64,000 bases of DNA, taken from assembly GCA_009392915.1 (NCBI GenBank), contig CP045477.1, positions 416,001-480,000 of the forward strand, read 5' to 3'. The number at the start of each line of letters is the position of its first letter. Position 1 is the stretch's first letter. A program made the translations under genes and the position numbers. Origin of the DNA: Candidatus Forterrea multitransposorum CG_2015-17_Forterrea_25_41 (GTDB lineage Archaea; Iainarchaeota; Iainarchaeia; Iainarchaeales; CSSED10-239). The notes beneath the pieces are model-generated. The model saw only the letters and a list, made by a program, of their open reading frames with translations, had not been told where the DNA came from and ran no database searches. Of the stretch, positions 1 to 40,785 are shown piece by piece.

Positions 1-140
1 GTTTTTTTACTAAATATATGTCTTAATAATCTACTCTTTCCAGAATTATTTCCACCTACAAAAATATTTAGTTTTGATAAACTATTAATAGTATCTGGAT
101 AACCTTCAAAATTTAATTTAATATTTTTAATTAATTCCAT
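1..140 (-). CDS. N-terminal fragment (approx 46 aa, truncated by window start) of an AAA_15/OLD-family-like ATPase. The ATG at 138-140 overlaps the hsdS stop codon.
   Basis: Reverse-strand translation MELIKNIKLNFEGYPDTINSLSKLNIFVGGNNSGKSRLL..., with a Walker A-like GGNNSGKS. The ATG overlaps the TAA of the upstream hsdS by 1 nt. Confidence 0.45.
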   Translation of the reverse strand, partial: MELIKNIKLNFEGYPDTINSLSKLNIFVGGNNSGKSRLLRHIFSKK

Positions 141-1432
141 TAATATTTCACCCTTATTTTTCCAGACATTAATTTAGGTAATAATAAATCTCTTATTTCA
201 GATAATTTCTTATTTTGCCTTTTATTTTCTGAAATTTTAATAAATGTACTTCTGATCATTGAATTATATTTTTTCAATATTTCATTTGATGGATTCAATA
301 TCTGTATTTTCTGAATGTTTTCATTATTAATTGCTTGCATTGTTGTACCATTACATAAGTTATTTTTTATTATTTCAAAATCATCATTTAATACAAAATT
401 CCAAATATAATACAAAGCATTTTCTTTTATGTCTAACCCAGCAAATCCAGTAGATAAAATTAAATTTTCTAATTCCCAAGCGCTATACTTATCAAAATAA
501 GTTATTTTTTTACTATTTTTCATTTTAGCAAACCACACTGTATTCTCTTTAGGTTGCATATTTGCTCTTGATGGTCTTTTTATAAATGTAATTTTAGTAT
601 TATAATTTATTATTTCAGAATTATCTATATCTGCAGTTGCAACATATGTTTTTTCATCAAAGTCTTCTGTACCAACCTTTGTAAAAGACGTTAGATTATT
701 GTCTCCTAAATGCCCAACATCCCATCCTTTAGGTATTTCTTTTTTTAATTCTTTATTATAAACCATTTCTCCTCCACTAGATTTATAAGGTTCTCCTTTT
801 TCATTTGGAAATTCAAAATCAACAAACCATCTTTTAAATAAAGTTTTTCCTATTTCTTCAAGTGTTTGATTCATTTTTCTGTTTAGTTCTATTTTTTCAT
901 CTAAATCAGAAAGGATTTTTGCAATTTTTAACATTTCATTATTATTTTTTGGAACTATAACTAGTAATTTTTTAATATCCCCTAAACTAAGTGTTTTTTG
1001 TGTAGAACCACCAACATTTTTTTCAATTTGATTTAAAATATATTTAGAATTTAAGGCATAATATAAAAAATAACTGTTTATATTCGGGTTAATTATCACC
1101 GTATTTTGCCCTAAACAAAATAATTCTGTTGTATTTACAAAACTTGTAATTCCATATGTTCCAACCCTAGTCATTATGATATCATTTTGCTTTGGGATAT
1201 AATTTTTAGTAAATTCATCATAAATAGATTTAGTAACTTTTAATGTATTTGATAAATCTAAACTACCTGATTTCACATCAGTTACTCTTACCATTGATAT
1301 TCCTTTATTAACATAAATTGGAGTTTTATGACAAGAATCAATAACTATAGATATATCATTTAATGATTTAACGTCCCAATCTTTAGGAATTAATCCAATT
1401 TCTGTTTTTTTAAATTTTATTTTATTAATCAT
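140..1432 (-). CDS. hsdS: Type I restriction-modification specificity subunit HsdS.
   Basis: 430 aa. Two target-recognition halves separated by a conserved central helix (KKLLVIVP...LDEKIELNRKMNQTLEEIGKTLFKRWFVDFEFP) and a C-terminal LLPKLMSGKIRV motif typical of HsdS. Sits in an operon with hsdM. Confidence 0.8.
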   Translation of the reverse strand: MINKIKFKKTEIGLIPKDWDVKSLNDISIVIDSCHKTPIYVNKGISMVRVTDVKSGSLDLSNTLKVTKSIYDEFTKNYIPKQNDIIMTRVGTYGITSFVNTTELFCLGQNTVIINPNINSYFLYYALNSKYILNQIEKNVGGSTQKTLSLGDIKKLLVIVPKNNNEMLKIAKILSDLDEKIELNRKMNQTLEEIGKTLFKRWFVDFEFPNEKGEPYKSSGGEMVYNKELKKEIPKGWDVGHLGDNNLTSFTKVGTEDFDEKTYVATADIDNSEIINYNTKITFIKRPSRANMQPKENTVWFAKMKNSKKITYFDKYSAWELENLILSTGFAGLDIKENALYYIWNFVLNDDFEIIKNNLCNGTTMQAINNENIQKIQILNPSNEILKKYNSMIRSTFIKISENKRQNKKLSEIRDLLLPKLMSGKIRVKY

Positions 1433-2400
1433 AATATTTCCAATTTATGTTCTGAATTAACAATTTCATAAAAATCATTAATATAAGTAATTATGTTTAA
1501 ATATATCGTATTATTTTTTACATCTGATACTTCTATGTGAGAAGTTATTTCAAAAATAGATCCTGTTCTTGTTTCTTCAGGAATATTAATATTCTCAGAA
1601 TACTCTAAAATTCTAAAATTTTTAATTTTAACTTTATCTTCTCCAATTTCAATTTGATTTAATTTAGACATATAATCATTAATATAACTTTTAAAATCAT
1701 ATGAATTGCTAAATTCCTCAATTGAATTAATAAAATTTTCTTCAGGATAAATATTATCTAATTTAATAAATAAACCATCACCTATCGGTTCTATAACTAT
1801 ATCTTTATTAAATAACTCTTTAAATTCTAATGCACAATTTTTATTAAATCCTAAATCCCTTGTAATTAAAAATACATTTTCATAATCATCAAAATCTTGA
1901 GATAATATTGTCTCCCATATCAAGGCATCTTTAAAACCAGAATCAGATTTTTTATCTTTATTAAAAGGAGACTTTTTTTCTAATGCTCTTATTTTTAGAT
2001 CATTAAATTTTTGAAAAATTAAATCATCAGAAATTTTTAAAATTTTTATTTTGTTTTCAAAAATATAATTTCCAATTTTATCCAAAATAAAATCTTTTAT
2101 ATTAAAATCATCTGAAATTTTAAATAAGTTAATTTTCGAATCAATATAAGCATATCTTTTTTTAATGTCACCTAATTTTCTGCTATCGGATTTAAAACAA
2201 TCTCTTCTTTGTTTTTCTAATTCAAATAAAGTTATATCTGTTATTGATAATTTAATATATTCAAACAAATTTTTTTTAAAAATATAATCATACAATTTTT
2301 TAAAATCATTATTAAATGTAAAAGTATGATAATAAATATTATCACTACTATTTTCTTTTAACACATTTGTATCAAAAATAATTATTGTTTTTGGCATCAT
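1429..2400 (-). CDS. PIN-like nuclease-domain protein (N-terminal approx 190 aa) with a C-terminal domain of unknown function.
   Basis: N-terminal IIIFDTNVL, plus downstream acidic residues including FLITRD (the hhTxD-type PIN motif). 4-nt overlap with both neighbouring genes. Confidence 0.45.
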   Translation of the reverse strand: MMPKTIIIFDTNVLKENSSDNIYYHTFTFNNDFKKLYDYIFKKNLFEYIKLSITDITLFELEKQRRDCFKSDSRKLGDIKKRYAYIDSKINLFKISDDFNIKDFILDKIGNYIFENKIKILKISDDLIFQKFNDLKIRALEKKSPFNKDKKSDSGFKDALIWETILSQDFDDYENVFLITRDLGFNKNCALEFKELFNKDIVIEPIGDGLFIKLDNIYPEENFINSIEEFSNSYDFKSYINDYMSKLNQIEIGEDKVKIKNFRILEYSENINIPEETRTGSIFEITSHIEVSDVKNNTIYLNIITYINDFYEIVNSEHKLEIL

Positions 2401-2879
2401 TTAAAATCAAATATTTTCTTTTTATTAGAATAATTAATTATTATTTTATATTTTAAATTGTTTTCTAAATTCATCTCTTTTTCAAAATTTTCTTTTGAAC
2501 TATAATTTAATTTAACTAATATTTTATCAGTGTGATTTGGTTGTAATAGAAATGGAAATATAACTGGTTTATATGATGGTAGAGGATAACTTGTTTTTAA
2601 ACCAACACCCAAACTTACAGATTCAGATACATTCAAATAAACTGAATTAGGCATAAATTTAGTTTTATTATGATATAATTCCATCTTCTTAATTGTAGTT
2701 GGTCTTTGACCAACATTACTTAAATAAAAATAAATCCAAATTTCATTTTCATCCATCTTAACTTCTAAAACTTCTTTTTCAACATATAATTTAGGTTTAT
2801 TTTTACTTTCTATATAAAAAGATAATAATATACCTAATATTGCAACTATTAAACCCAATATACTAATTATATATTCCAT
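2397..2879 (-). CDS. Small single-pass membrane protein with a beta-rich C-terminal domain, hypothetical.
   Basis: N-terminal hydrophobic helix ISILGLIVAILGILLSFYI. Overlapping start and stop with its neighbours. Confidence 0.4.
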   Translation of the reverse strand: MEYIISILGLIVAILGILLSFYIESKNKPKLYVEKEVLEVKMDENEIWIYFYLSNVGQRPTTIKKMELYHNKTKFMPNSVYLNVSESVSLGVGLKTSYPLPSYKPVIFPFLLQPNHTDKILVKLNYSSKENFEKEMNLENNLKYKIIINYSNKKKIFDFK

Positions 2880-3370
2880 TAGTTATCATTTTTCTTTTTA
2901 AACTTTCTAATTAATGCTAATAATAGTTCTTGTTTAAAAAATATTATACTTAGTAATTCTATACCAAAAGCAATATTTAAAACAACAGATAATTTAAAAT
3001 TATTAATTATTGTTTTGTAAATACTTATTTGACTATTTTCTATATTTTCAAATTTTTGATTTAAATTAGTTATTTGATACTGTATAATATTATAATCATT
3101 TTTTATTTCTTCAAAATCTTTTTTAGTTATATTTTCTGTTATTAATTTGTTATAGTCAGACTGACAATTTTTTAGTTGTGAACTAATCTGTATTATATTG
3201 TTATTTAATGTAATTTTATTTAATTCACAATTATTTAATTTATCTACAATAGGTTTACATTTATCCTCTGATAATAAACCAAACAATCCTTGTATAATTG
3301 GAATAAATATCATCACAATTATAAACACAACTAAAATACCTCCAATTATTGCAAATGGATTATCCGCCAT
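2879..3370 (-). CDS. Small membrane protein with two TM segments flanking a Cys-containing coiled-coil region, hypothetical.
   Basis: N-terminal TM helix (FAIIGGILVVFIIVMIFIPII), a Q/N/K-rich heptad-like middle region, and a C-terminal hydrophobic segment. Start lies 2 nt after the hsdM stop. Confidence 0.4.
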   Translation of the reverse strand: MADNPFAIIGGILVVFIIVMIFIPIIQGLFGLLSEDKCKPIVDKLNNCELNKITLNNNIIQISSQLKNCQSDYNKLITENITKKDFEEIKNDYNIIQYQITNLNQKFENIENSQISIYKTIINNFKLSVVLNIAFGIELLSIIFFKQELLLALIRKFKKKNDN

Positions 3371-3372
3371 AT

Positions 3373-4890
3373 CTATTTCACCTCAAAGCCGATTCCTTTA
3401 AGATTTTTCTTAATCTCTTCTTCTAATTTCTTAGATTCTTTAAATTGTTCGCTTAATTCTTTTGTAAGGCGAGTCATCTTTTCTTGAAAAACTTCAGGAT
3501 CTTCCTCTTCTTCCTTAAAACCAACGTAACGGCCAGGTGTAAGAATAAAGTCTTGCTTTTCAATCTCTTCAAGAGAGGCTGATTTACAAAAAGAAAGCTC
3601 ATCTTGATAACTTTTTTTGTTTATCGGGTCTTTTGACCTCCAAAGAGAAACAGTTTCTGAAATTTTTGTAAAATCTTCTTCAGTGAGTTCTCTTTGTCTT
3701 CTGTTAATCATTTGTCCAAGATTTCTAGCATCAATAAAAAGAGTTTCTCCTTTTCTATGTGCAGGTTTATTTCTATTAACAAACCAAAGACAAGCAGGAA
3801 TCATTGTATTATAAAATAATTGAGATGGAAGAGCAATAATACACTCTACAAGATCATCTTTAAGTATATTTTTTCTAATTTCTCCTTCTCCAGAAGTATT
3901 AGAACTTAAAGAACCGTTTGAAAGAACAAAACCAGCAATTCCTTTAGATCCTAAATGATAAATAAAATGTTGAACCCATGCAAAATTAGCGTTCCCTGCA
4001 GGAGGAACTCCATATTTCCAACGAGCATCCTCTCTTAATAGATCTCCAGACCAGTCTGAATCATTAAAAGGAGGATTTGCAATTATAAAATCAGCTCTTA
4101 AGTCTTTATGTTCATCATTTAGAAAACTACCTTCATTATTCCAAACAACTTTATTATCAATACCTCTTATTGCAAGATTCATTTTACATAATTTCCAAGT
4201 TGTTTGATTAGATTCTTGACCATAAATAGATATTTGACCTATTTTTCCACCATGTTTTTCAACAAACTCTTCAGATTGAACAAACATTCCTCCAGAACCA
4301 CAACAAGGGTCAAATATTCTTCCTTTAAAAGGTTGTATTATTTCAACTAATAATTTAACAATAGATTTAGGAGTATAGAATTGGCCTCCTTTTTTTCCTT
4401 CAGCAGAAGCAAATTGTCCTAAGAAATATTCATATACTCTTCCTAAGATATCTTTACTATTATCTTTAGAATTAAAAGAAATTGTTCCTATAAGATCAAT
4501 TAACGCTCCTAATTTTGTTTTATCTAAAGATGGTTTTGAATAATCTTTTGGAAGTATTCCTTTAAGTGTTGGATTTTCTTTTTCAATTAAATCCATTGAA
4601 TCATCAATAATTCTTCCAATTTCTATATTTTTTGCATTATCTTGAAGATATTCCCATCTTGCTTTTTTTGGAACATAAAATACTCTTTGAGAGACATATT
4701 CATCTTTATCTTCTGGGTCTGCATATTCTTCTTCTTTTAGTTTAGTATATAGTTCTTCAAAAGAATCAGATATATATTTTAAAAATATTAAACCTAAAAC
4801 TACATGTTTATATTCTGCAGCATCCATATTACTTCTTAATTTATCTGCTGCTTTCCAAAGCTTTTCTTCAAATCCTAAATCTTGAGTCAT
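3373..4890 (-). CDS. hsdM: Type I restriction-modification N6-adenine DNA methyltransferase subunit HsdM.
   Basis: 505 aa with an AdoMet motif ([10 protein letters not shown]) and the catalytic NPPF ([12 protein letters not shown]). N-terminal HsdM_N-like region present. Confidence 0.9.
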
Positions 4891-4960: not shown

Positions 4961-5347
4961 CTATTCAAATCTAATCTCTTTTCTATCATCTTCTATTGCT
5001 TGTTTTATTTTATTATATTCTTCTTCACTTAACTCTATTATATTACTATAAGTATAATCTTCCTTTGCAAGCTTAAATCTTTCTTGTAAAGAACGTGCAC
5101 CAAGACCTTTATTAGATAAAAGTAATAAAGAAAGTTTAATCTGATAAGGATATGGTTTTTTCCAAGAAGTAAATTCATTGTCTACTTTTTTAATAACTTT
5201 AAATATTCCAAAAATTACTCCTTGACCATAATATACAATAATATCATCTAAATTAACTAAATCTCTTTCATTTTTGTCTATAAAACCACAATATTCTTTT
5301 GTTTTAACAAAAGATTCCCAAGAATGGTTAATTAAGTAATATTTCAT
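4961..5347 (-). CDS. EVE-like (PUA-fold) domain protein.
   Basis: 128 aa. Pattern MKYYLINHSWESF ... DDIIVYYGQGVIFGIFKVIK ... PYQIKLSLL resembles the EVE consensus (YWLxK..P..F / GDLxFFYHS..IVGIAEV). Lies 70 bp upstream of hsdM on the same strand. Confidence 0.4.
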   Translation of the reverse strand: MKYYLINHSWESFVKTKEYCGFIDKNERDLVNLDDIIVYYGQGVIFGIFKVIKKVDNEFTSWKKPYPYQIKLSLLLLSNKGLGARSLQERFKLAKEDYTYSNIIELSEEEYNKIKQAIEDDRKEIRFE

Positions 5348-5349
5348 TT

Positions 5350-6729
5350 TTAATCATATCTAAATCCATATTTTTCAGTTAATTTTTGCCATTCATCATG
5401 ATATTTTTTCCATTCATTATATTCAAATTCATCTAATACCTGGCCAGAACCATAACTATCTAATTTATTTTGCAAAAATTTTAATCTCAAATTATCATCA
5501 TATTCTTCTTTAACACTTTCAAAAGATTTACCTTCAGAAACAACATAAATATTTGGCTTTGAAATTAATTTACCTACTCCAATATAATCTCCATCACTAT
5601 CTGTAATAATACTTGGAGTTGTTGTTTCTATAAAACAATAACCAGAATTATTATAAGAATATTTAATTGGGCATTTTAATCCTATTGAAGCATGCTGCTC
5701 TAATTCAAAACTAAAAATTGCAACACCATAACCTAACTCTTTTAACATTAATGCAAGTAAATTTGTTTTATCCCCACAAACTCCTGTTTGATCATATAAT
5801 GTTTCATAAGCATATCTATTACTATAATTATGATTAAAAGAATCCCAATCATAAGGCATTGTTTGAACTAAACTGATTGCAATCCTTGCTTGATCATCAG
5901 TATTATTTGTTATTTTTTTAATTTCATTAATTAATGGTAGAATATATCTTTCTTGATCTTCAGTATTAACATACATTAATGACATATATTCAGAAGTAGG
6001 AGGAGATTCATAAGAAGAATAAGTTACTGTTCGAGGTAAATTTGACAAATAATAATTAAACCCATTATAGACAGTGTAATTAAAACTATTAGGTACACCT
6101 CTTAGAGTATAATTTAACTTAATTGGCTTAGGTTCAGTTTGCAATTTATGTAAACACTTCCCATTAATATAAATTTCATCTATATCACATAAACATTTTT
6201 CAGGAAACTCAATTAAATTACCTTTCTGACAAAAATAAGGCTTAATATTTGAACAATTATTATATAAAGTACCATCTTCACACCTATTAATAACAAAATT
6301 AAATAATAAATTCATAATTATATAAATTAGAATAATAATAATAACAATATTTCTTAATTGTTTAAATCTAATTTTTTTAAGTAAATGAATAACTAAAGTT
6401 AAAATTAAACTATTTAGTAAAATTATTATAAAAAAGTTAAAACTAACCTTTAATAATAGATAATTAAAACTTAATAAAATAATAACATAAACTAAAGTCC
6501 ATATAAATAAATAAAAATTAAATCTAAATTTATTTTTATAAATTATAACAGTTATTATGCGTGAAAATAAACTAAATATGATTGCTATAAATACTAATTT
6601 AGTGGTATTATTAACAATATTTAATAAATTTAAAAATAAAGAAGATAAATAATATAATAGACTATAAATTAATATCCAAAATAGAAACCAGTAAGATTTA
6701 TAAAATCTAAAAATATTATTATTTCTCAT
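5350..6729 (-). CDS. Membrane-anchored protein with a Cys-rich ectodomain and a transglutaminase-like cysteine protease core.
   Basis: First ~140 aa are multi-TM, followed by a Cys-rich segment. The C-terminus carries GVCGDKTNLLALMLKELGYGVAIF...EQHASIGL...GYCFIETT, which resembles a transglutaminase-like C/H/D triad. Confidence 0.4.
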   Translation of the reverse strand: MRNNNIFRFYKSYWFLFWILIYSLLYYLSSLFLNLLNIVNNTTKLVFIAIIFSLFSRIITVIIYKNKFRFNFYLFIWTLVYVIILLSFNYLLLKVSFNFFIIILLNSLILTLVIHLLKKIRFKQLRNIVIIIILIYIIMNLLFNFVINRCEDGTLYNNCSNIKPYFCQKGNLIEFPEKCLCDIDEIYINGKCLHKLQTEPKPIKLNYTLRGVPNSFNYTVYNGFNYYLSNLPRTVTYSSYESPPTSEYMSLMYVNTEDQERYILPLINEIKKITNNTDDQARIAISLVQTMPYDWDSFNHNYSNRYAYETLYDQTGVCGDKTNLLALMLKELGYGVAIFSFELEQHASIGLKCPIKYSYNNSGYCFIETTTPSIITDSDGDYIGVGKLISKPNIYVVSEGKSFESVKEEYDDNLRLKFLQNKLDSYGSGQVLDEFEYNEWKKYHDEWQKLTEKYGFRYD

Positions 6730-6746
6730 TTTATCACATTAATATT

Positions 6747-7028
6747 TCAATGTCTTTTTTTAATTGATCTTTTAGAAATATTAGAACTTCTATATCTTAC
6801 AGGTTTACTTTTTCTATAAGAATCTTTTAAAACAGAATCACTTTCATTTTTTAAATCATGAATAGTTGGTTCTTTATAACCTAACTGCTTTAAAGCAGAA
6901 TCAAATATCTTTGTAAAGCTTAAGTTATTCTCTTGTACAAATCTTTCTTGACTTTTTGTAATTCTCATATTTATTCTTATATTTCTTCTTTCTGGAGAAG
7001 TATCTCTTTTTACATCTTCTATATTCAT
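6747..7028 (-). CDS. Small ribbon-helix-helix-like DNA-binding protein (start taken at the internal Met, MNIEDVKRD...).
   Basis: A beta-strand (IRINMRITKSQ) followed by two helices. Basic C-terminal tail. Confidence 0.3.
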   Translation of the reverse strand: MNIEDVKRDTSPERRNIRINMRITKSQERFVQENNLSFTKIFDSALKQLGYKEPTIHDLKNESDSVLKDSYRKSKPVRYRSSNISKRSIKKRH

Positions 7029-7164
7029 ATAAATCAATCCCTTAAATACACTTTTCCCAATCAAGAGCATAGTGTATATACAACTTTGACACAACGAGTT
7101 TATAAATAGATCGATTACACTAAAATATAATAAAAAGAGAAGATTAAAAAATAAATCTTATCTA

Positions 7165-7890
7165 CTAAACTTTAATCTCTATTAAAACAGGATTATGGTC
7201 ACTAAATCTTCTAATTTCATCATTTTCAAGAACTTTGCAAGAAATAATGTTTTTAAAAATAGGTTTATTCATAAAAAAGTAATCATTTTGCCACTTAACT
7301 TTACTTTTTTTATGTCTTAAGGTCTGTACAGGATATTCTTTATCAGTTAAATCAAAAGCATCAAAAAAATTAAAATCTTTTAATCTATCAAAAAAAATCT
7401 TATGAGAGTTATTATATTTATATATTAAATCAAATTGAATACTTGCATTTAAATCTCCCCCCAATATAATATTTCTTTTACCATTAAGTTTACCATAAAA
7501 CAAAGGAGATAAATCAGATAACATGCTATGTAGATTAGGAATTGAATAACCATCTGTCATAAGACCATATAATGATATAAAAGTAAGTTTTTTATTATTT
7601 ATAACAGTATTTGCTATTGTTAAAGATCCATTAAATTTAGTATTTATTGTTTCCTGAGAAAGATTGTATTTTTTACTATAAATTCCAGATCCCCAATTAC
7701 GATTTTTATCAATTTTATTCCAAATAAGATTTGAATCTTTTTTAATATGTTCAGGAGGATTTGATTCTTGAAATAAATATATATCTGCATCAATATTATT
7801 TAAAAAATAATCCCAAATATCTTTATTTAGCTTTTTATTTTTCCAATAATCCATATTCCAAGTAACTATTTTAATATTCATTCTTATCAA
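7165..7890 (-). CDS. Endonuclease/exonuclease/phosphatase (EEP) family protein.
   Basis: N-terminal KIVTWNMDYW (TWN motif) and C-terminal RFSDHNPV (SDH motif), both characteristic of the EEP fold. Confidence 0.7.
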   Translation of the reverse strand: MIRMNIKIVTWNMDYWKNKKLNKDIWDYFLNNIDADIYLFQESNPPEHIKKDSNLIWNKIDKNRNWGSGIYSKKYNLSQETINTKFNGSLTIANTVINNKKLTFISLYGLMTDGYSIPNLHSMLSDLSPLFYGKLNGKRNIILGGDLNASIQFDLIYKYNNSHKIFFDRLKDFNFFDAFDLTDKEYPVQTLRHKKSKVKWQNDYFFMNKPIFKNIISCKVLENDEIRRFSDHNPVLIEIKV

Positions 7891-7898
7891 TTTTTATT

Positions 7899-8738
7899 TT
7901 AAATAACCTTCTTAATATTCTTTTCCAAGTAAACAATAAACTTATCTTTATTCTTTCCTTTTAACTTTTCCCAAGAATTATATACTTTTCTTATTTTATC
8001 TTCTAAAATAATATCTTCTTTATCATTATATCTGTATCTTGCATATTTTTCTTTATTATAACCTAACTTATATGCTAAAATATTTTCAATAGTAGATGTA
8101 AAAGTTTCACTAAATGACTGCTTTTTTATTCCACCATATTTATCTAAAATATATTTTTCAATTCTATTATATATTTCATTATTTGAATTAATTACATGAA
8201 TAAGTTCATGAATTAATAAAATATATATTCTATTTTTAGTAAATTTTCTATAATCAACATCATCTCCTATAGATATATGAAAAGATAAATTTGTTGCAGA
8301 ACCTCCAAAACCAGGCCTTGTATTATTTGCAACAAAGAAAGTAGAGCTTACTTTTGTAGAATTATAAATAACATCTAAATAAGGTTTAATTATTTTAAGT
8401 TCTTTCTCTTTAAAATTAGTTATAAATGTATTTAGAAAATCTTCTGATTTTTTATTAATAACAATAGGAAATAATTTTTTTAAAACAATTAGATGTTTTT
8501 TTTCAATATTACTTAATTTTTTTTTATTAACAATATTATCTATTAAATTTTTGTAATTAAGCCTATTTGTAGAAATAATACTATAATCTTTATTAATCAA
8601 AAAAATTAAATCTACCATTTCTTTTAATTGATTTTTATTAGCAAAAGTATAAACTTTATCAATATTACAATATGCTTTACAAGCAAGTCTTAAATCTTTT
8701 GAAGGTTTTATTAAGTTTAGTTTAATATCAACACTCAT
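7899..8738 (-). CDS. Hypothetical protein with a HExxH motif (possible zincin-like).
   Basis: LLIHELIHV motif. Start lies 8 nt upstream of the EEP gene. Confidence 0.3.
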   Translation of the reverse strand: MSVDIKLNLIKPSKDLRLACKAYCNIDKVYTFANKNQLKEMVDLIFLINKDYSIISTNRLNYKNLIDNIVNKKKLSNIEKKHLIVLKKLFPIVINKKSEDFLNTFITNFKEKELKIIKPYLDVIYNSTKVSSTFFVANNTRPGFGGSATNLSFHISIGDDVDYRKFTKNRIYILLIHELIHVINSNNEIYNRIEKYILDKYGGIKKQSFSETFTSTIENILAYKLGYNKEKYARYRYNDKEDIILEDKIRKVYNSWEKLKGKNKDKFIVYLEKNIKKVI

Positions 8739-8805
8739 AAAGATATCTATTAAATAAAGGTTTTTTAAAAGTTATGTTTAATAAGGAGCTATCATAAACT
8801 AAAAA

Positions 8806-9147
8806 TTAAACATTTACCCAAATAACACAACCTTTCTTATGAACGTAAGGTTTTGGAGAAGAATATCTTTTGATATCAGACAATACCCAAGCATGAGGAT
8901 TATTATATTTTAAATCTAAAACATCTTCTTTCTTTATTTGATGCTTTTCTAAGTTTTTAAATAAAATATCTTTGTTAATTTTTATTGAATCTTTAATAGT
9001 ACATTCACCATATACTTTTTTGCTGCCACTCATAATAAGAGCAATTCTTTCACCAATCTTTGAAGTATTAAAGTTTCTTATCTCCCAAGTCTTTTTTCCT
9101 TCTAAGATTAAATTTAACCATTTTTCTTTAATTATAAGGCCTTTCAT
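8806..9147 (-). CDS. ASCH domain (PUA-like) protein.
   Basis: 113 aa. KEKWLNLILEGKKTWEIR ... GERIALIMSG ... GECTIKD matches the ASCH pattern (K..w...i.sG.KtvE.R...gd.i.l......vvg.a.i). Confidence 0.6.
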   Translation of the reverse strand: MKGLIIKEKWLNLILEGKKTWEIRNFNTSKIGERIALIMSGSKKVYGECTIKDSIKINKDILFKNLEKHQIKKEDVLDLKYNNPHAWVLSDIKRYSSPKPYVHKKGCVIWVNV

Positions 9148-40504: not shown

Positions 40505-40785
40505 TATTAAGTGTACAGGCACTTACTGGTCGAAAAACAGTTCAAGAAAACATTTAGCTTTATAAAATCTCAAGTCCGCAACCCAAAAAGCATCAAACAC
40601 TTAGGATACTGCTGCTTCCTTCCGGATCTGACAGGGTTTACTAAGATATTCGATCTTAATGGACGAACCGTCAGCAATTTTACAAAGAGTGCCTCCTTGC
40701 TTATTTGCCTTCCAGTAATAATCACTCCGGCTATGTAGATTTCCGGTAACAGGAGACTACAACCCCCCCAGCTAGCCTATACAAG
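40505..40785 (-). ncRNA. Signal recognition particle RNA (SRP/7S RNA).
   Basis: Reverse strand contains GUCAGAUCCGGAAGGAAGCAGC, the conserved helix-8 motif (cf. GGUCCGGAAGGAAGCAGCC). It is a GC-rich ~280-nt island in AT-rich DNA, with an oligo-T run at the 3' end. Ends are approximate. Confidence 0.6.

What the first reader, a model, noticed from the sequence alone, without database searches (positions are those of the whole stretch)
1429..2400. Orphan PIN-like nuclease (323 aa) with an unrecognised C-terminal domain inside the hsdM-hsdS interval
The N-terminus carries the PIN hallmarks (IIIFDTNVL, downstream E/D, FLITRD). The C-terminal ~130 aa match nothing I can name. PIN RNases are typical toxin/Abi effectors. 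Here the gene is sandwiched between two small membrane proteins and hsdS with 4-nt overlaps.
Basis: partly seen in the sequence, partly recalled or inferred. Interest (0 to 1): 0.7.

Follow-up and report, generated by a model that had tools for sequence, protein, structure and literature searches.

The report
PIN nuclease gene inside restriction operon
The gene is real and encodes a PIN-type nuclease of the known but uncharacterised PIN_12/DUF4935 family; its relatives across bacteria and archaea almost always sit right after hsdM inside type I restriction-modification operons, so it is probably an untested backup defence effector tied to that system.

Summary

The protein is not an orphan: 1,926 clusters at 50% identity match it. 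Of 80 species-level genome loci found with a PIN motif alone, 64 have hsd genes within 8 kb. Among those with a 300-380-aa ORF, the count is 57 of 64. In 42 loci the PIN start lies within 17 nt of the hsdM stop. No PADLOC model matches, and the literature I could search calls DUF4935 mostly monocistronic.

The two upstream membrane proteins are lineage-specific and are not obligate partners.

Best reading, inferred and untested: a latent nuclease coupled to HsdM/HsdMS that acts as a PrrC/Ronin-like second line of defence. The main rival is an independent single-gene defence that is merely embedded. The gene is ordinary; the family-level linkage is a useful lead.

The parts
1429..2400 (-). PIN_12 (DUF4935) family gene, 323 aa plus stop codon
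   Evidence: ORF. Pfam PF16289 scores 44.3 bits against a cut-off of 32. AF2 model pLDDT 93.5.
1789..2400 (-). PIN nuclease domain, residues 1-204. Putative catalytic residues D10, E60, D158 and D182. Helical inserts at residues 55-83, 101-115 and 125-140.
1432..1788 (-). C-terminal NTF2/cystatin-like alpha+beta domain, residues 205-323. Fast-evolving.
3373..4890 (-). hsdM, type I methyltransferase subunit, 505 aa
   Evidence: Pfam HsdM_N plus N6_Mtase, E 4e-111.
2879..3370 (-). 163-aa protein: TM helix, coiled coil, TM helix. Lineage-specific embedded gene.
   Evidence: TM segments at 1-35 and 125-146. Only a weak match to the 176-aa protein of L096, E 0.006. Absent from the other PIN_12 loci.
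2397..2879 (-). 160-aa protein with an N-terminal TM helix. This family is itself confined to hsdM-hsdS intervals of related archaea.
   Evidence: TM segment 1-26. Homologs at 48-64% identity lie in hsd operons with or without PIN_12.
140..1432 (-). hsdS, specificity subunit, 430 aa
   Evidence: Pfam Methylase_S, E 4e-17.
1..140 (-). First 46 codons of a 627-aa ABC-ATPase/OLD-like TOPRIM gene, cut by the window edge. hsdR and a 217-aa TM protein follow, outside the window.
   Evidence: Full operon on contig L001. Pfam AAA_15, AAA_21 and OLD-like_TOPRIM; PADLOC GajA, AriA and Old models.

Best explanation
The gene encodes a metal-dependent PIN endonuclease of the PIN_12/DUF4935 family. An RNase is most likely, as in VapC. 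[quoted passage not shown] It is co-transcribed with hsdM and translationally coupled to the preceding gene, which is hsdM itself in most homologs.

Proposed mechanism, by analogy with PrrC and Ronin: the nuclease is held latent by the HsdM or HsdM2S1 complex, possibly through its variable NTF2-like C-terminal domain. It is released or activated when a virus disables or overwhelms the restriction enzyme. It then cuts essential RNA and aborts the infection.

Shown here: the fold, the conserved active-site residues, and the near-exclusive, tight and ancient linkage to hsdM.

Inferred, not shown: nuclease activity, the substrate, latency, the trigger, and any contact with Hsd subunits.
For: PIN fold and family:
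- Pfam PIN_12 above threshold.
- Conservation in 119 homologs: D10 114, E60 119, D158 119, D182 103.

Linkage to hsd genes:
- In a scan of 185,579 species genomes seeded only by the PIN motif, 64 of 80 loci carry hsd genes within 8 kb.
- 57 of the 64 loci with a 300-380-aa ORF do.
- In 42 loci the PIN start is within -17..+17 nt of the hsdM stop, and 24 of these overlap.
- The arrangement hsdM-PIN-hsdS-hsdR occurs in Bacillota, Bacteroidota, Omnitrophota, Patescibacteria, Syntrophaceae, Bdellovibrionales, Methanosarcinales, Methanoperedens and Micrarchaeia.
- When the PIN gene is not after hsdM it is usually still inside the operon: M-S-PIN-R four times and M-S-R-PIN three times.
- All three IMG/VR hits have the same layout.

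Co-divergence: PIN and HsdM pairwise distances correlate at r=0.69, with 0 of 2000 Mantel permutations as high. HsdM and HsdR correlate at 0.91.

No VapB-like antitoxin gene precedes it.

Precedents for effectors embedded in type I loci and released on anti-restriction: PrrC (PMC12707154) and RonA/Ronin (10.1101/2023.04.06.535777). Payne et al. note that PrrC is almost exclusively embedded in type I systems, the same pattern as here.
Against: - There are no experimental data for any member embedded in a type I operon.
- Tight linkage and co-divergence are also expected for a passenger gene that only shares transfer and transcription.
- In the window itself the PIN gene follows two membrane-protein genes, not hsdM.
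- 7 of the 64 same-size homologs have no hsd genes within the flank held; two of these (L036, L039) have a full 8 kb on both sides and five sit on contigs cut 1.2-3.8 kb downstream. Some of the seven lie next to other restriction genes, so Hsd proteins cannot be obligatory for every member.
- There is no sequence homology to PrrC or RonA.
- PIN-HsdM co-divergence is clearly weaker than HsdM-HsdR: r 0.52 against 0.83 for divergent pairs.
- Physical interaction was not testable with these tools.
Confidence: 0.42

Rival explanations
1. It is an autonomous single-gene defence or abortive-infection nuclease. The variable C-terminal NTF2-like domain senses a viral component directly and switches on the PIN domain. 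The gene sits in the hsd operon only because embedding gives co-transfer and co-expression, which is the logic behind 'guilt by embedding'.
For: - Type I operons commonly hold embedded, independently acting systems such as TgvAB and the HEC systems.
- The hsdM-hsdS interval of related archaea holds changing cassettes: DUF3800, Shedu SduA_C, TM proteins and unknowns.
- Some same-size family members lie outside hsd operons, near GmrSD or another methylase.
- A protein with a domain its authors call PIN12 (Brc24, 'Cosus') defends on its own from an integron cassette (10.1101/2024.07.02.601719). It was not compared with this protein.
- The C-terminal domain evolves fast, as sensor domains do.
Against: - 89% embedding and a fixed position within 17 nt of the hsdM stop in 42 loci across distant phyla is much stricter than expected for a free-standing system that lands in a hot spot.
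- The gene stays inside the operon even when its position changes.
- Its distances co-vary with HsdM.
Confidence: 0.27
2. It is an auxiliary subunit of the restriction enzyme that acts on nucleic acid at the restriction step. It might process or degrade DNA after HsdR cleavage, or enhance target binding, as the PIN-like PcrIIC1 enhances Cas9.
For: - Translational coupling to hsdM suggests a fixed stoichiometry.
- The PIN-like superfamily includes DNA-acting nucleases (PMC5499597).
Against: - Type I enzymes work without such a subunit.
- The loci seen without PIN_12 (L091, L096/L097) have HsdM, HsdS and HsdR subunits of the same type.
Confidence: 0.1
3. It is one part of a lineage-specific multi-gene module together with the two upstream membrane proteins. 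The membrane proteins would act as sensors, anchors or co-effectors.
For: - The three genes are contiguous and overlap or nearly abut.
- A 160-aa homolog also precedes PIN_12 in a Ca. Ainarchaeum contig.
- Unrelated small membrane proteins lie between hsdM and PIN_12 in L002, L075, L085, L086 and perhaps L044.
- Ronin shows that a small membrane protein can be an Hsd-controlled effector.
Against: - The membrane proteins are missing from about 45 loci where PIN_12 directly follows hsdM.
- The 160-aa family occurs without PIN_12 in L091 and L096.
- The membrane proteins in other loci are not homologous to those in the window.
Confidence: 0.08
4. It is a toxin of an addiction module that stabilises the hsd operon. 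HsdM or a neighbouring product would act as the antitoxin, and there would be no role in virus defence.
For: - The fold is VapC-like with intact catalytic residues.
- Matelska et al. noted PIN nucleases coupled to type I subunits without antitoxins.
Against: - There is no VapB-like gene.
- The protein is 2.4 times the size of VapC and carries an extra domain.
- Type I systems already resist loss poorly or well without toxins. This rival overlaps mechanistically with the best explanation.
Confidence: 0.06

Closest known systems
[quoted passage not shown] 2017, PMC5499597)
   Same: - The score is above the gathering threshold over the full profile.
- The protein is about 320-350 aa.
- The N-terminal PIN domain has a long helical insert after strand 2.
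- There are 4-5 conserved acidic residues.
- There is a less conserved alpha/beta C-terminal region with no known homolog.
   Different: - The paper calls the genes 'usually mono-cistrons' and lists 310 bacterial and 2 archaeal members. Here the clade with the GFKDA(L/V)IWE motif is overwhelmingly embedded in type I operons and includes several archaeal lineages.
- The C-terminal region is here assigned an NTF2/cystatin-like fold.
PrrC anticodon nuclease in the EcoprrI type IC locus
   Same: It is an RNase-type effector gene embedded in an hsd operon and found almost only there. The proposed logic is latency imposed by the restriction complex and release on anti-restriction.
   Different: - There is no homology. 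PrrC is an ABC-ATPase fused to an anticodon-nuclease domain, whereas this is PIN plus an NTF2-like domain.
- Control by Hsd proteins is unproven here.
Ronin (HsdMS plus the 61-aa membrane effector RonA)
   Same: An effector is genetically tied to hsdM and hsdS. It is a precedent for HsdMS sequestering a toxic partner and for anti-restriction proteins as triggers.
   Different: - Ronin lacks hsdR and its effector is a tiny membrane protein.
- This operon keeps hsdR and the candidate effector is a soluble nuclease.
- The window's own membrane proteins were not compared with RonA.
VapC toxins of VapBC type II toxin-antitoxin systems
   Different: - 323 aa against about 135 aa.
- Three helical inserts and an extra domain.
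- No upstream VapB antitoxin gene.
Embedded defence genes in type I operons (Rlo genes, TgvAB, and the HEC/PDC candidates of Payne et al. 2024)
   Same: The genomic logic is the same: extra defence genes sit inside hsd operons. The window operon also carries an OLD-like ATPase-TOPRIM of this kind.
   Different: No PADLOC 2.0.0 model, including the PDC candidates, matches any of the 119 family members. The Payne supplements do not mention DUF4935 or PF16289.

Membership tests
PIN domain-like superfamily (VapC-like group) | Three-layer alpha/beta/alpha fold with a central parallel sheet | tested here: met
PIN domain-like superfamily (VapC-like group) | Four conserved acidic residues forming the metal site | tested here: met
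   Counts in 119 homologs: D10 114, E60 119, D158 119, D182 103. T11 (T or S) is present in 117.
PIN domain-like superfamily (VapC-like group) | Metal-dependent nuclease activity | not testable with these tools
   This needs biochemistry.
Pfam PIN_12 / DUF4935 (PF16289) | Score at or above the curated gathering threshold | tested here: met
   44.3 bits against 32, residues 7-185 on profile positions 1-172 of 172. All six close homologs carry PF16289.
Pfam PIN_12 / DUF4935 (PF16289) | About 350-aa protein with an N-terminal PIN domain plus a less conserved alpha/beta C-terminal region | tested here: met
   323 aa. The C-terminal domain is present in nearly all of 119 homologs (few gaps) but is highly variable. 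This matches the description in PMC5499597.
VapBC type II toxin-antitoxin | Adjacent upstream small antitoxin gene (VapB) forming a two-gene operon | tested here: not met
   The upstream genes are membrane proteins in the window and hsdM in most homologs.
VapBC type II toxin-antitoxin | Single-domain toxin of about 130-150 aa | tested here: not met
   323 aa with helical inserts and a second domain.
PrrC-type restriction-linked guard | Gene embedded in a type I hsd operon and nearly exclusive to that context | tested here: met
   64 of 80 loci, and 57 of the 64 with a same-size ORF, carry hsd genes. 42 loci are within 17 nt of the hsdM stop.
PrrC-type restriction-linked guard | Homology to PrrC (ABC-ATPase plus anticodon-nuclease domain) | tested here: not met
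   No PADLOC model (a library of known and candidate anti-phage defence proteins) matches the window protein at E<=1 or any PrrC model among 119 family members at E<=0.001. The Pfam hit is PIN_12.
PrrC-type restriction-linked guard | Latency imposed by the Hsd complex and activation by an anti-restriction factor | not testable with these tools
   This needs co-expression and toxicity assays and binding tests.
Ronin | hsdM and hsdS without hsdR, plus the small membrane effector RonA | tested here: not met
   hsdR is present in the operon. The candidate effector is a soluble 323-aa nuclease with no TM segment.
NTF2-like / cystatin-like fold (C-terminal domain) | Helices packed on a curved antiparallel sheet (alpha+beta roll or cone) | tested here: inconclusive

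The most novel reading that the evidence does not exclude
PIN_12 proteins of this clade are a widespread, so far undescribed class of type I restriction 'guardian' present in both Bacteria and Archaea. The nuclease would dock on HsdM/HsdMS through its rapidly evolving NTF2-like domain. It would fire when viral anti-restriction proteins hit the complex. That would make type I systems with this insert two-layered immune modules, and would give DUF4935 its first function.
Probability: 0.3. Interest if true: 0.7.

Novelty: new variant of a known kind. Interest (0 to 1): 0.52.

Why it matters
The gene on its own is an ordinary member of a catalogued domain family of unknown function.

The pattern behind it is more useful. 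A PIN nuclease with a variable NTF2-like domain is welded to hsdM in dozens of distant bacterial and archaeal lineages. It is absent from the PADLOC defence catalogue I could search, and I found no description of the linkage in the searchable literature.

If it proves to be a restriction-linked backup effector, it would add a third, mechanistically different example beside PrrC and Ronin. It would extend the restriction-guard concept to archaea, and it would assign a function to DUF4935.

It is directly testable, because many homologs come from named, sequenced bacterial strains (Clostridium, Streptococcus, Runella, Alkaliphilus, Psychrobacillus).

Tried and rejected
- PADLOC, NCBIfam and PDB sequence searches of the protein gave nothing. 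PHROGs gave only a weak hit, E 0.018.
- PADLOC on all 119 family members gave no system. One member had a marginal AbiEii hit.
- tblastn of the archaeal protein against the plasmid and phage collections gave no match. A bacterial member was not tried.
- A profile of the C-terminal domain alone against the 5.8-billion-protein set gave no hit at E<=0.001. I could not show that the domain is used with other effectors.
- The afdb50 library was unavailable.
- I considered a VapBC-like toxin-antitoxin and rejected it: no antitoxin gene and the wrong size.
- I considered the two membrane proteins as obligate partners and rejected this on distribution. The 160-aa and 217-aa TM proteins are not detectably similar.
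- I considered recent horizontal insertion of the PIN or TM cassette. GC3 is uniformly 0.06-0.13 across the operon and its neighbours, so there is no compositional signal.
- The Cosus 'PIN12' defence protein is only a literature lead. Its sequence was not compared, and the residues mutated there (T12, D14, D96) do not obviously map onto D10, T11 and N12.
Full report
**1. The observation**

The ORF is real: 1429..2400, minus strand, ATG start, 323 aa. IIIFDTNVL is residues 6-14 and FLITRD is residues 177-182.

On the minus strand the gene order is:
- hsdM (4890..3373; Pfam HsdM_N plus N6_Mtase)
- a 163-aa protein (3370..2879)
- a 160-aa protein (2879..2397)
- the PIN gene (2400..1429)
- hsdS (1432..140; Methylase_S)

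Reading the sequence confirms ATGA start/stop overlaps at both ends of the PIN gene. A hydropathy scan gives TM segments at residues 1-35 and 125-146 of the 163-aa protein and 1-26 of the 160-aa protein. It gives none in the PIN protein.

An identical protein lies on a 99-kb ENA metagenome contig (L001) that shows the whole operon:

hsdM - TM163 - TM160 - PIN - hsdS - 627-aa ABC-ATPase/OLD-like TOPRIM - hsdR (1018 aa) - 217-aa TM protein

The window carries an archaeal SRP RNA and is 24.5% G+C. Close homologs of the neighbouring gene are annotated 'archaeon' and 'Candidatus ainarchaeum sp.'. The host is therefore an uncultured archaeon, probably DPANN; that last step is inference. GC3 is uniformly 0.06-0.13 across the operon and its neighbours, so nothing looks recently acquired.

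**2. What the protein is**

Family assignment:
- Pfam PIN_12 (PF16289, formerly DUF4935) matches residues 7-185 over the entire profile at 44.3 bits, against a gathering score of 32. PIN_8 is a weaker second hit.
- NCBIfam, PADLOC and a sequence search of the PDB give nothing.
- The word-indexed search found only six relatives.
- A full HMMER scan of 1.84 billion cluster representatives, using a profile of those six, found 1,926 at E<=1e-3 and 167 at E<=1e-30. Most are 320-360 aa, and many alignments run into the C-terminal third.

So the protein is not an orphan, and its two-part architecture is a family trait.

Conserved residues in a 119-sequence alignment:
- Invariant: E60, P145, K157, D158.
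- D10 in 114 of 119, T11 as T or S in 117, N12 in 113, D153 in 110, E163 in 112, D182 in 103, E192 in 115.

This is the PIN acidic tetrad (D10, E60, D158, D182) plus the D-T-N motif.

**3. Structure**

AlphaFold2 with that alignment gave a confident model: mean pLDDT 93.5, pTM 0.82.

N-terminal part, residues 1-204:
- The strands and helices of a PIN domain are interrupted by long helical inserts at residues 55-83, 101-115 and 125-140. Matelska et al. described such inserts for DUF4935.
- Foldseek alone was not significant. The best hit was VapC2 at E 0.07.

C-terminal part, residues 205-323:
- It is three helices followed by a five-stranded antiparallel sheet.
- The 'unrecognised' domain is thus a generic NTF2/cystatin-like alpha+beta roll. 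Fold class is assigned; homology and function are not.
- It evolves much faster than the PIN core (column entropy about 3.1-3.4 bits against 1.2-2.5 in the most conserved PIN-core blocks) yet is rarely deleted.
- A profile of the domain alone retrieved nothing from the 5.8-billion-protein set.

**4. Genomic context is the main result**

The five independent homolog lineages from the first search already pointed one way:
- P0003: hsdM - 379 aa - PIN - hsdS - 422 aa - hsdR
- P0004: hsdM - PIN - hsdS
- P0005: hsdM - PIN - hsdS
- P0006: not in an hsd operon

I then scanned one genome per species (185,579 species) with a pattern taken only from the PIN motif DxGFKD[AVN][LVI][IL]W. This gave 80 loci. 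I located Hsd genes in them by tblastn with the window's own proteins.

Results for the 80 species-level loci:
- 64 of 80 have hsd genes within 8 kb.
- Among ORFs of the same size class (300-380 aa), 57 of 64 do.
- In 42 loci the PIN start is within -17 to +17 nt of the hsdM stop codon, and 24 of these overlap.

Architecture counts over all 90 loci then held:
- hsdM-PIN-hsdS-hsdR: 41
- Truncated versions of that order: 19
- M-S-PIN-R: 4
- M-S-R-PIN: 3
- PIN alone: 18. These are mostly distant, longer (400-458 aa) relatives or short contigs.

The hosts span Bacillota, Bacteroidota, Omnitrophota, Patescibacteria, Syntrophaceae, Bdellovibrionales, Methanosarcinales, Methanoperedens and Micrarchaeia.

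All the linked HsdM proteins are 51-84% identical to the window's (51-68% apart from the closest relative, L002), so this is one type I family. Its closest solved M subunit is 3khk. Its closest solved R subunit is EcoR124I, and only moderately so.

Only three hits exist in 2.9 million IMG/VR viral contigs. All three are hsdM-PIN-hsdS.

Of the few same-size members with no hsd gene in the flank held, one overlaps the end of an N6/N4 DNA methylase with GmrSD nearby. One is next to GmrSD. Two have housekeeping neighbours.

A chance expectation for hsdM within 8 kb of a random gene is of the order of a percent. This is inference from general knowledge of type I frequency, so the enrichment is very large.

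Pairwise distances of PIN and HsdM across 43 complete operons correlate at r=0.69, with 0 of 2000 Mantel permutations as high. HsdM and HsdR correlate at 0.91. For divergent pairs only, the figures are 0.52 and 0.83. This indicates long co-inheritance with some exchange.

**5. The neighbours**

The two membrane proteins:
- Neither was found by tblastn in any of the 90 loci then held except L001.
- The 160-aa protein has close homologs only in related archaea, and all of them are in the hsdM-hsdS interval with changing company:
  - hsdM - DUF3800 - 219 aa - TM160h - hsdS (no PIN)
  - hsdM - Shedu SduA_C - TM160h - PIN_12 - hsdS (this PIN is 39% identical to ours)
  - hsdM - 176-aa TM/coiled-coil protein - TM160h - 267-aa unknown - hsdS
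- The 176-aa protein weakly resembles TM163 (E 0.006).
- Unrelated small membrane proteins sit between hsdM and PIN in a few bacterial loci.

The interval is thus a cassette hot spot, and the membrane proteins are not obligate partners of the nuclease.

No recurrent partner gene of PIN_12 was seen. The large gaps in clostridial loci hold half-hsdS genes and a recombinase-like ORF, which indicates phase-variable shufflons.

The 627-aa protein between hsdS and hsdR is an ABC-ATPase with an OLD-like TOPRIM domain. It matches PADLOC GajA, AriA, Old and NsnB models and is a second embedded defence candidate.

**6. What is known**

- Matelska et al. 2017 defined DUF4935 as a VapC-group PIN domain with an uncharacterised, less conserved alpha/beta C-terminal region. 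They gave its function as unknown, called the genes 'usually mono-cistrons', and listed 310 bacterial and 2 archaeal members. In a separate section they mentioned 'several cases' of PIN nucleases coupled to type I subunits, some without antitoxins.
- DUF4935 appears in full text in only one other paper, inside genomic islands next to DUF3800, TIR and reverse-transcriptase genes. PF16289 appears only in Matelska et al..
- A preprint reports an integron cassette protein (Brc24, 'Cosus') with a 'PIN12' domain that blocks T7. Mutations in predicted PIN residues weaken the defence. I could not compare the sequences.
- Embedding of defence genes in type I operons is well documented:
  - PrrC
  - RloF and TgvAB
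  - the 'guilt-by-embedding' survey of Payne et al., which notes that PrrC is almost exclusively embedded
  - Ronin, where HsdMS suppresses a toxic partner and Ocr, ArdA or Aop1 trigger it
- None of the 119 family members matches any PADLOC 2.0.0 model, including the PDC candidates.
- The supplements of Payne et al. do not mention DUF4935 or PF16289.
- Further searches found no description of a PIN_12-hsdM module.

**7. Mechanism**

Shown:
- A PIN fold with an intact, conserved acidic site.
- An added fast-evolving NTF2-like domain.
- No antitoxin gene.
- Near-exclusive, translationally coupled and ancient linkage to hsdM.

Inferred:
- The protein is an active nuclease, most likely on RNA, as in the VapC group.
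- It serves the type I system as a second line of defence. It would be kept latent by HsdM/HsdMS and unleashed when the complex is inhibited, on the PrrC/Ronin model. The C-terminal domain is a candidate docking or sensing surface, because many NTF2-like modules are protein-binding.

I give this 0.42.

The main rival, at 0.27, is an autonomous single-gene abortive-infection nuclease that is merely embedded. It is supported by the cassette-like nature of the interval, by members outside hsd operons and by the Cosus precedent. The strictness of the hsdM coupling weakens it.

Minor rivals:
- An auxiliary nuclease of the restriction complex (0.10).
- A module with the membrane proteins (0.08).
- An addiction toxin (0.06).

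**8. Verdict**

'Orphan' is wrong. 'Unrecognised C-terminal domain' reflects a gap already noted for this family, now narrowed to a fold class.

As a single gene it is a new member of a known family in a known kind of context. The family-level pattern is a variant of the restriction-embedded effector theme, and I did not find it described. It is an untested but readily testable lead, and the interest is moderate.

Noticed in passing
window 1-140 (-); full gene L001 12261-14144: A 627-aa ABC-ATPase (AAA_15/AAA_21) with an OLD-like TOPRIM domain lies between hsdS and hsdR. It matches PADLOC GajA, AriA, Old and NsnB models and is a second embedded defence candidate in the same operon.
   Followed up: partly
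window 2397-2879 (-); L091 6001-6480, L094 1663-2148, L096 1577-2065: The 160-aa N-terminal-TM protein family is confined to the hsdM-hsdS interval in all four archaeal lineages examined. Its neighbours change: DUF3800, Shedu SduA_C, PIN_12 and a 267-aa unknown. It has a weak PHROG hit (phrog_4989, E 7e-6). Its function is unknown.
   Followed up: partly
window 2879-3370 (-); L096 1050-1580: A small protein with the layout TM helix, coiled coil, TM helix precedes the 160-aa family member in two lineages (weak similarity, E 0.006). The two may form a two-gene membrane module.
   Followed up: partly
window 4961-5347 (-); L091 2613-2999: A 128-aa ORF directly upstream of hsdM is 74% identical to a 128-aa ORF in the same position in another archaeal hsd operon. 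It has no Pfam match. It may be a conserved leader or regulator of this operon type.
   Followed up: partly
L001 17181-17834 (outside the window, downstream of hsdR): A 217-aa protein with an N-terminal TM helix overlaps the end of hsdR. It has no Pfam or PADLOC hit and is not detectably similar to the 160-aa protein.
   Followed up: partly
window 5350-9147 (-): Upstream of the hsd operon lies a run of small or unknown genes. It includes a 459-aa multi-TM protein with a weak transglutaminase-core hit, a 241-aa protein with a weak Exo_endo_phos call and an ASCH-domain protein. This may be a wider defence island.
   Followed up: no
L041, L046, L050, L061, L074 (between PIN_12 and hsdS): Clostridial hsdM-PIN_12 operons carry extra half-size hsdS-like genes and a ~328-aa ORF that looked recombinase-like from its N-terminal sequence (no domain search run), conserved at 70-98% identity. 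These look like phase-variable hsdS shufflons, and PIN_12 sits upstream of the shuffling region.
   Followed up: partly
L052 6776-8993; L036 10083-11924: Where PIN_12 is not in a type I operon, it overlaps the end of an N6_N4 DNA methylase with GmrSD nearby (L052), or lies next to a GmrSD gene (L036).
   Followed up: partly
window 40512-40783 (-): An archaeal SRP RNA (Rfam RF01857, 118 bits) identifies the window as archaeal. There are also four tRNA genes: Tyr, Leu, Ser and Asp.
   Followed up: yes
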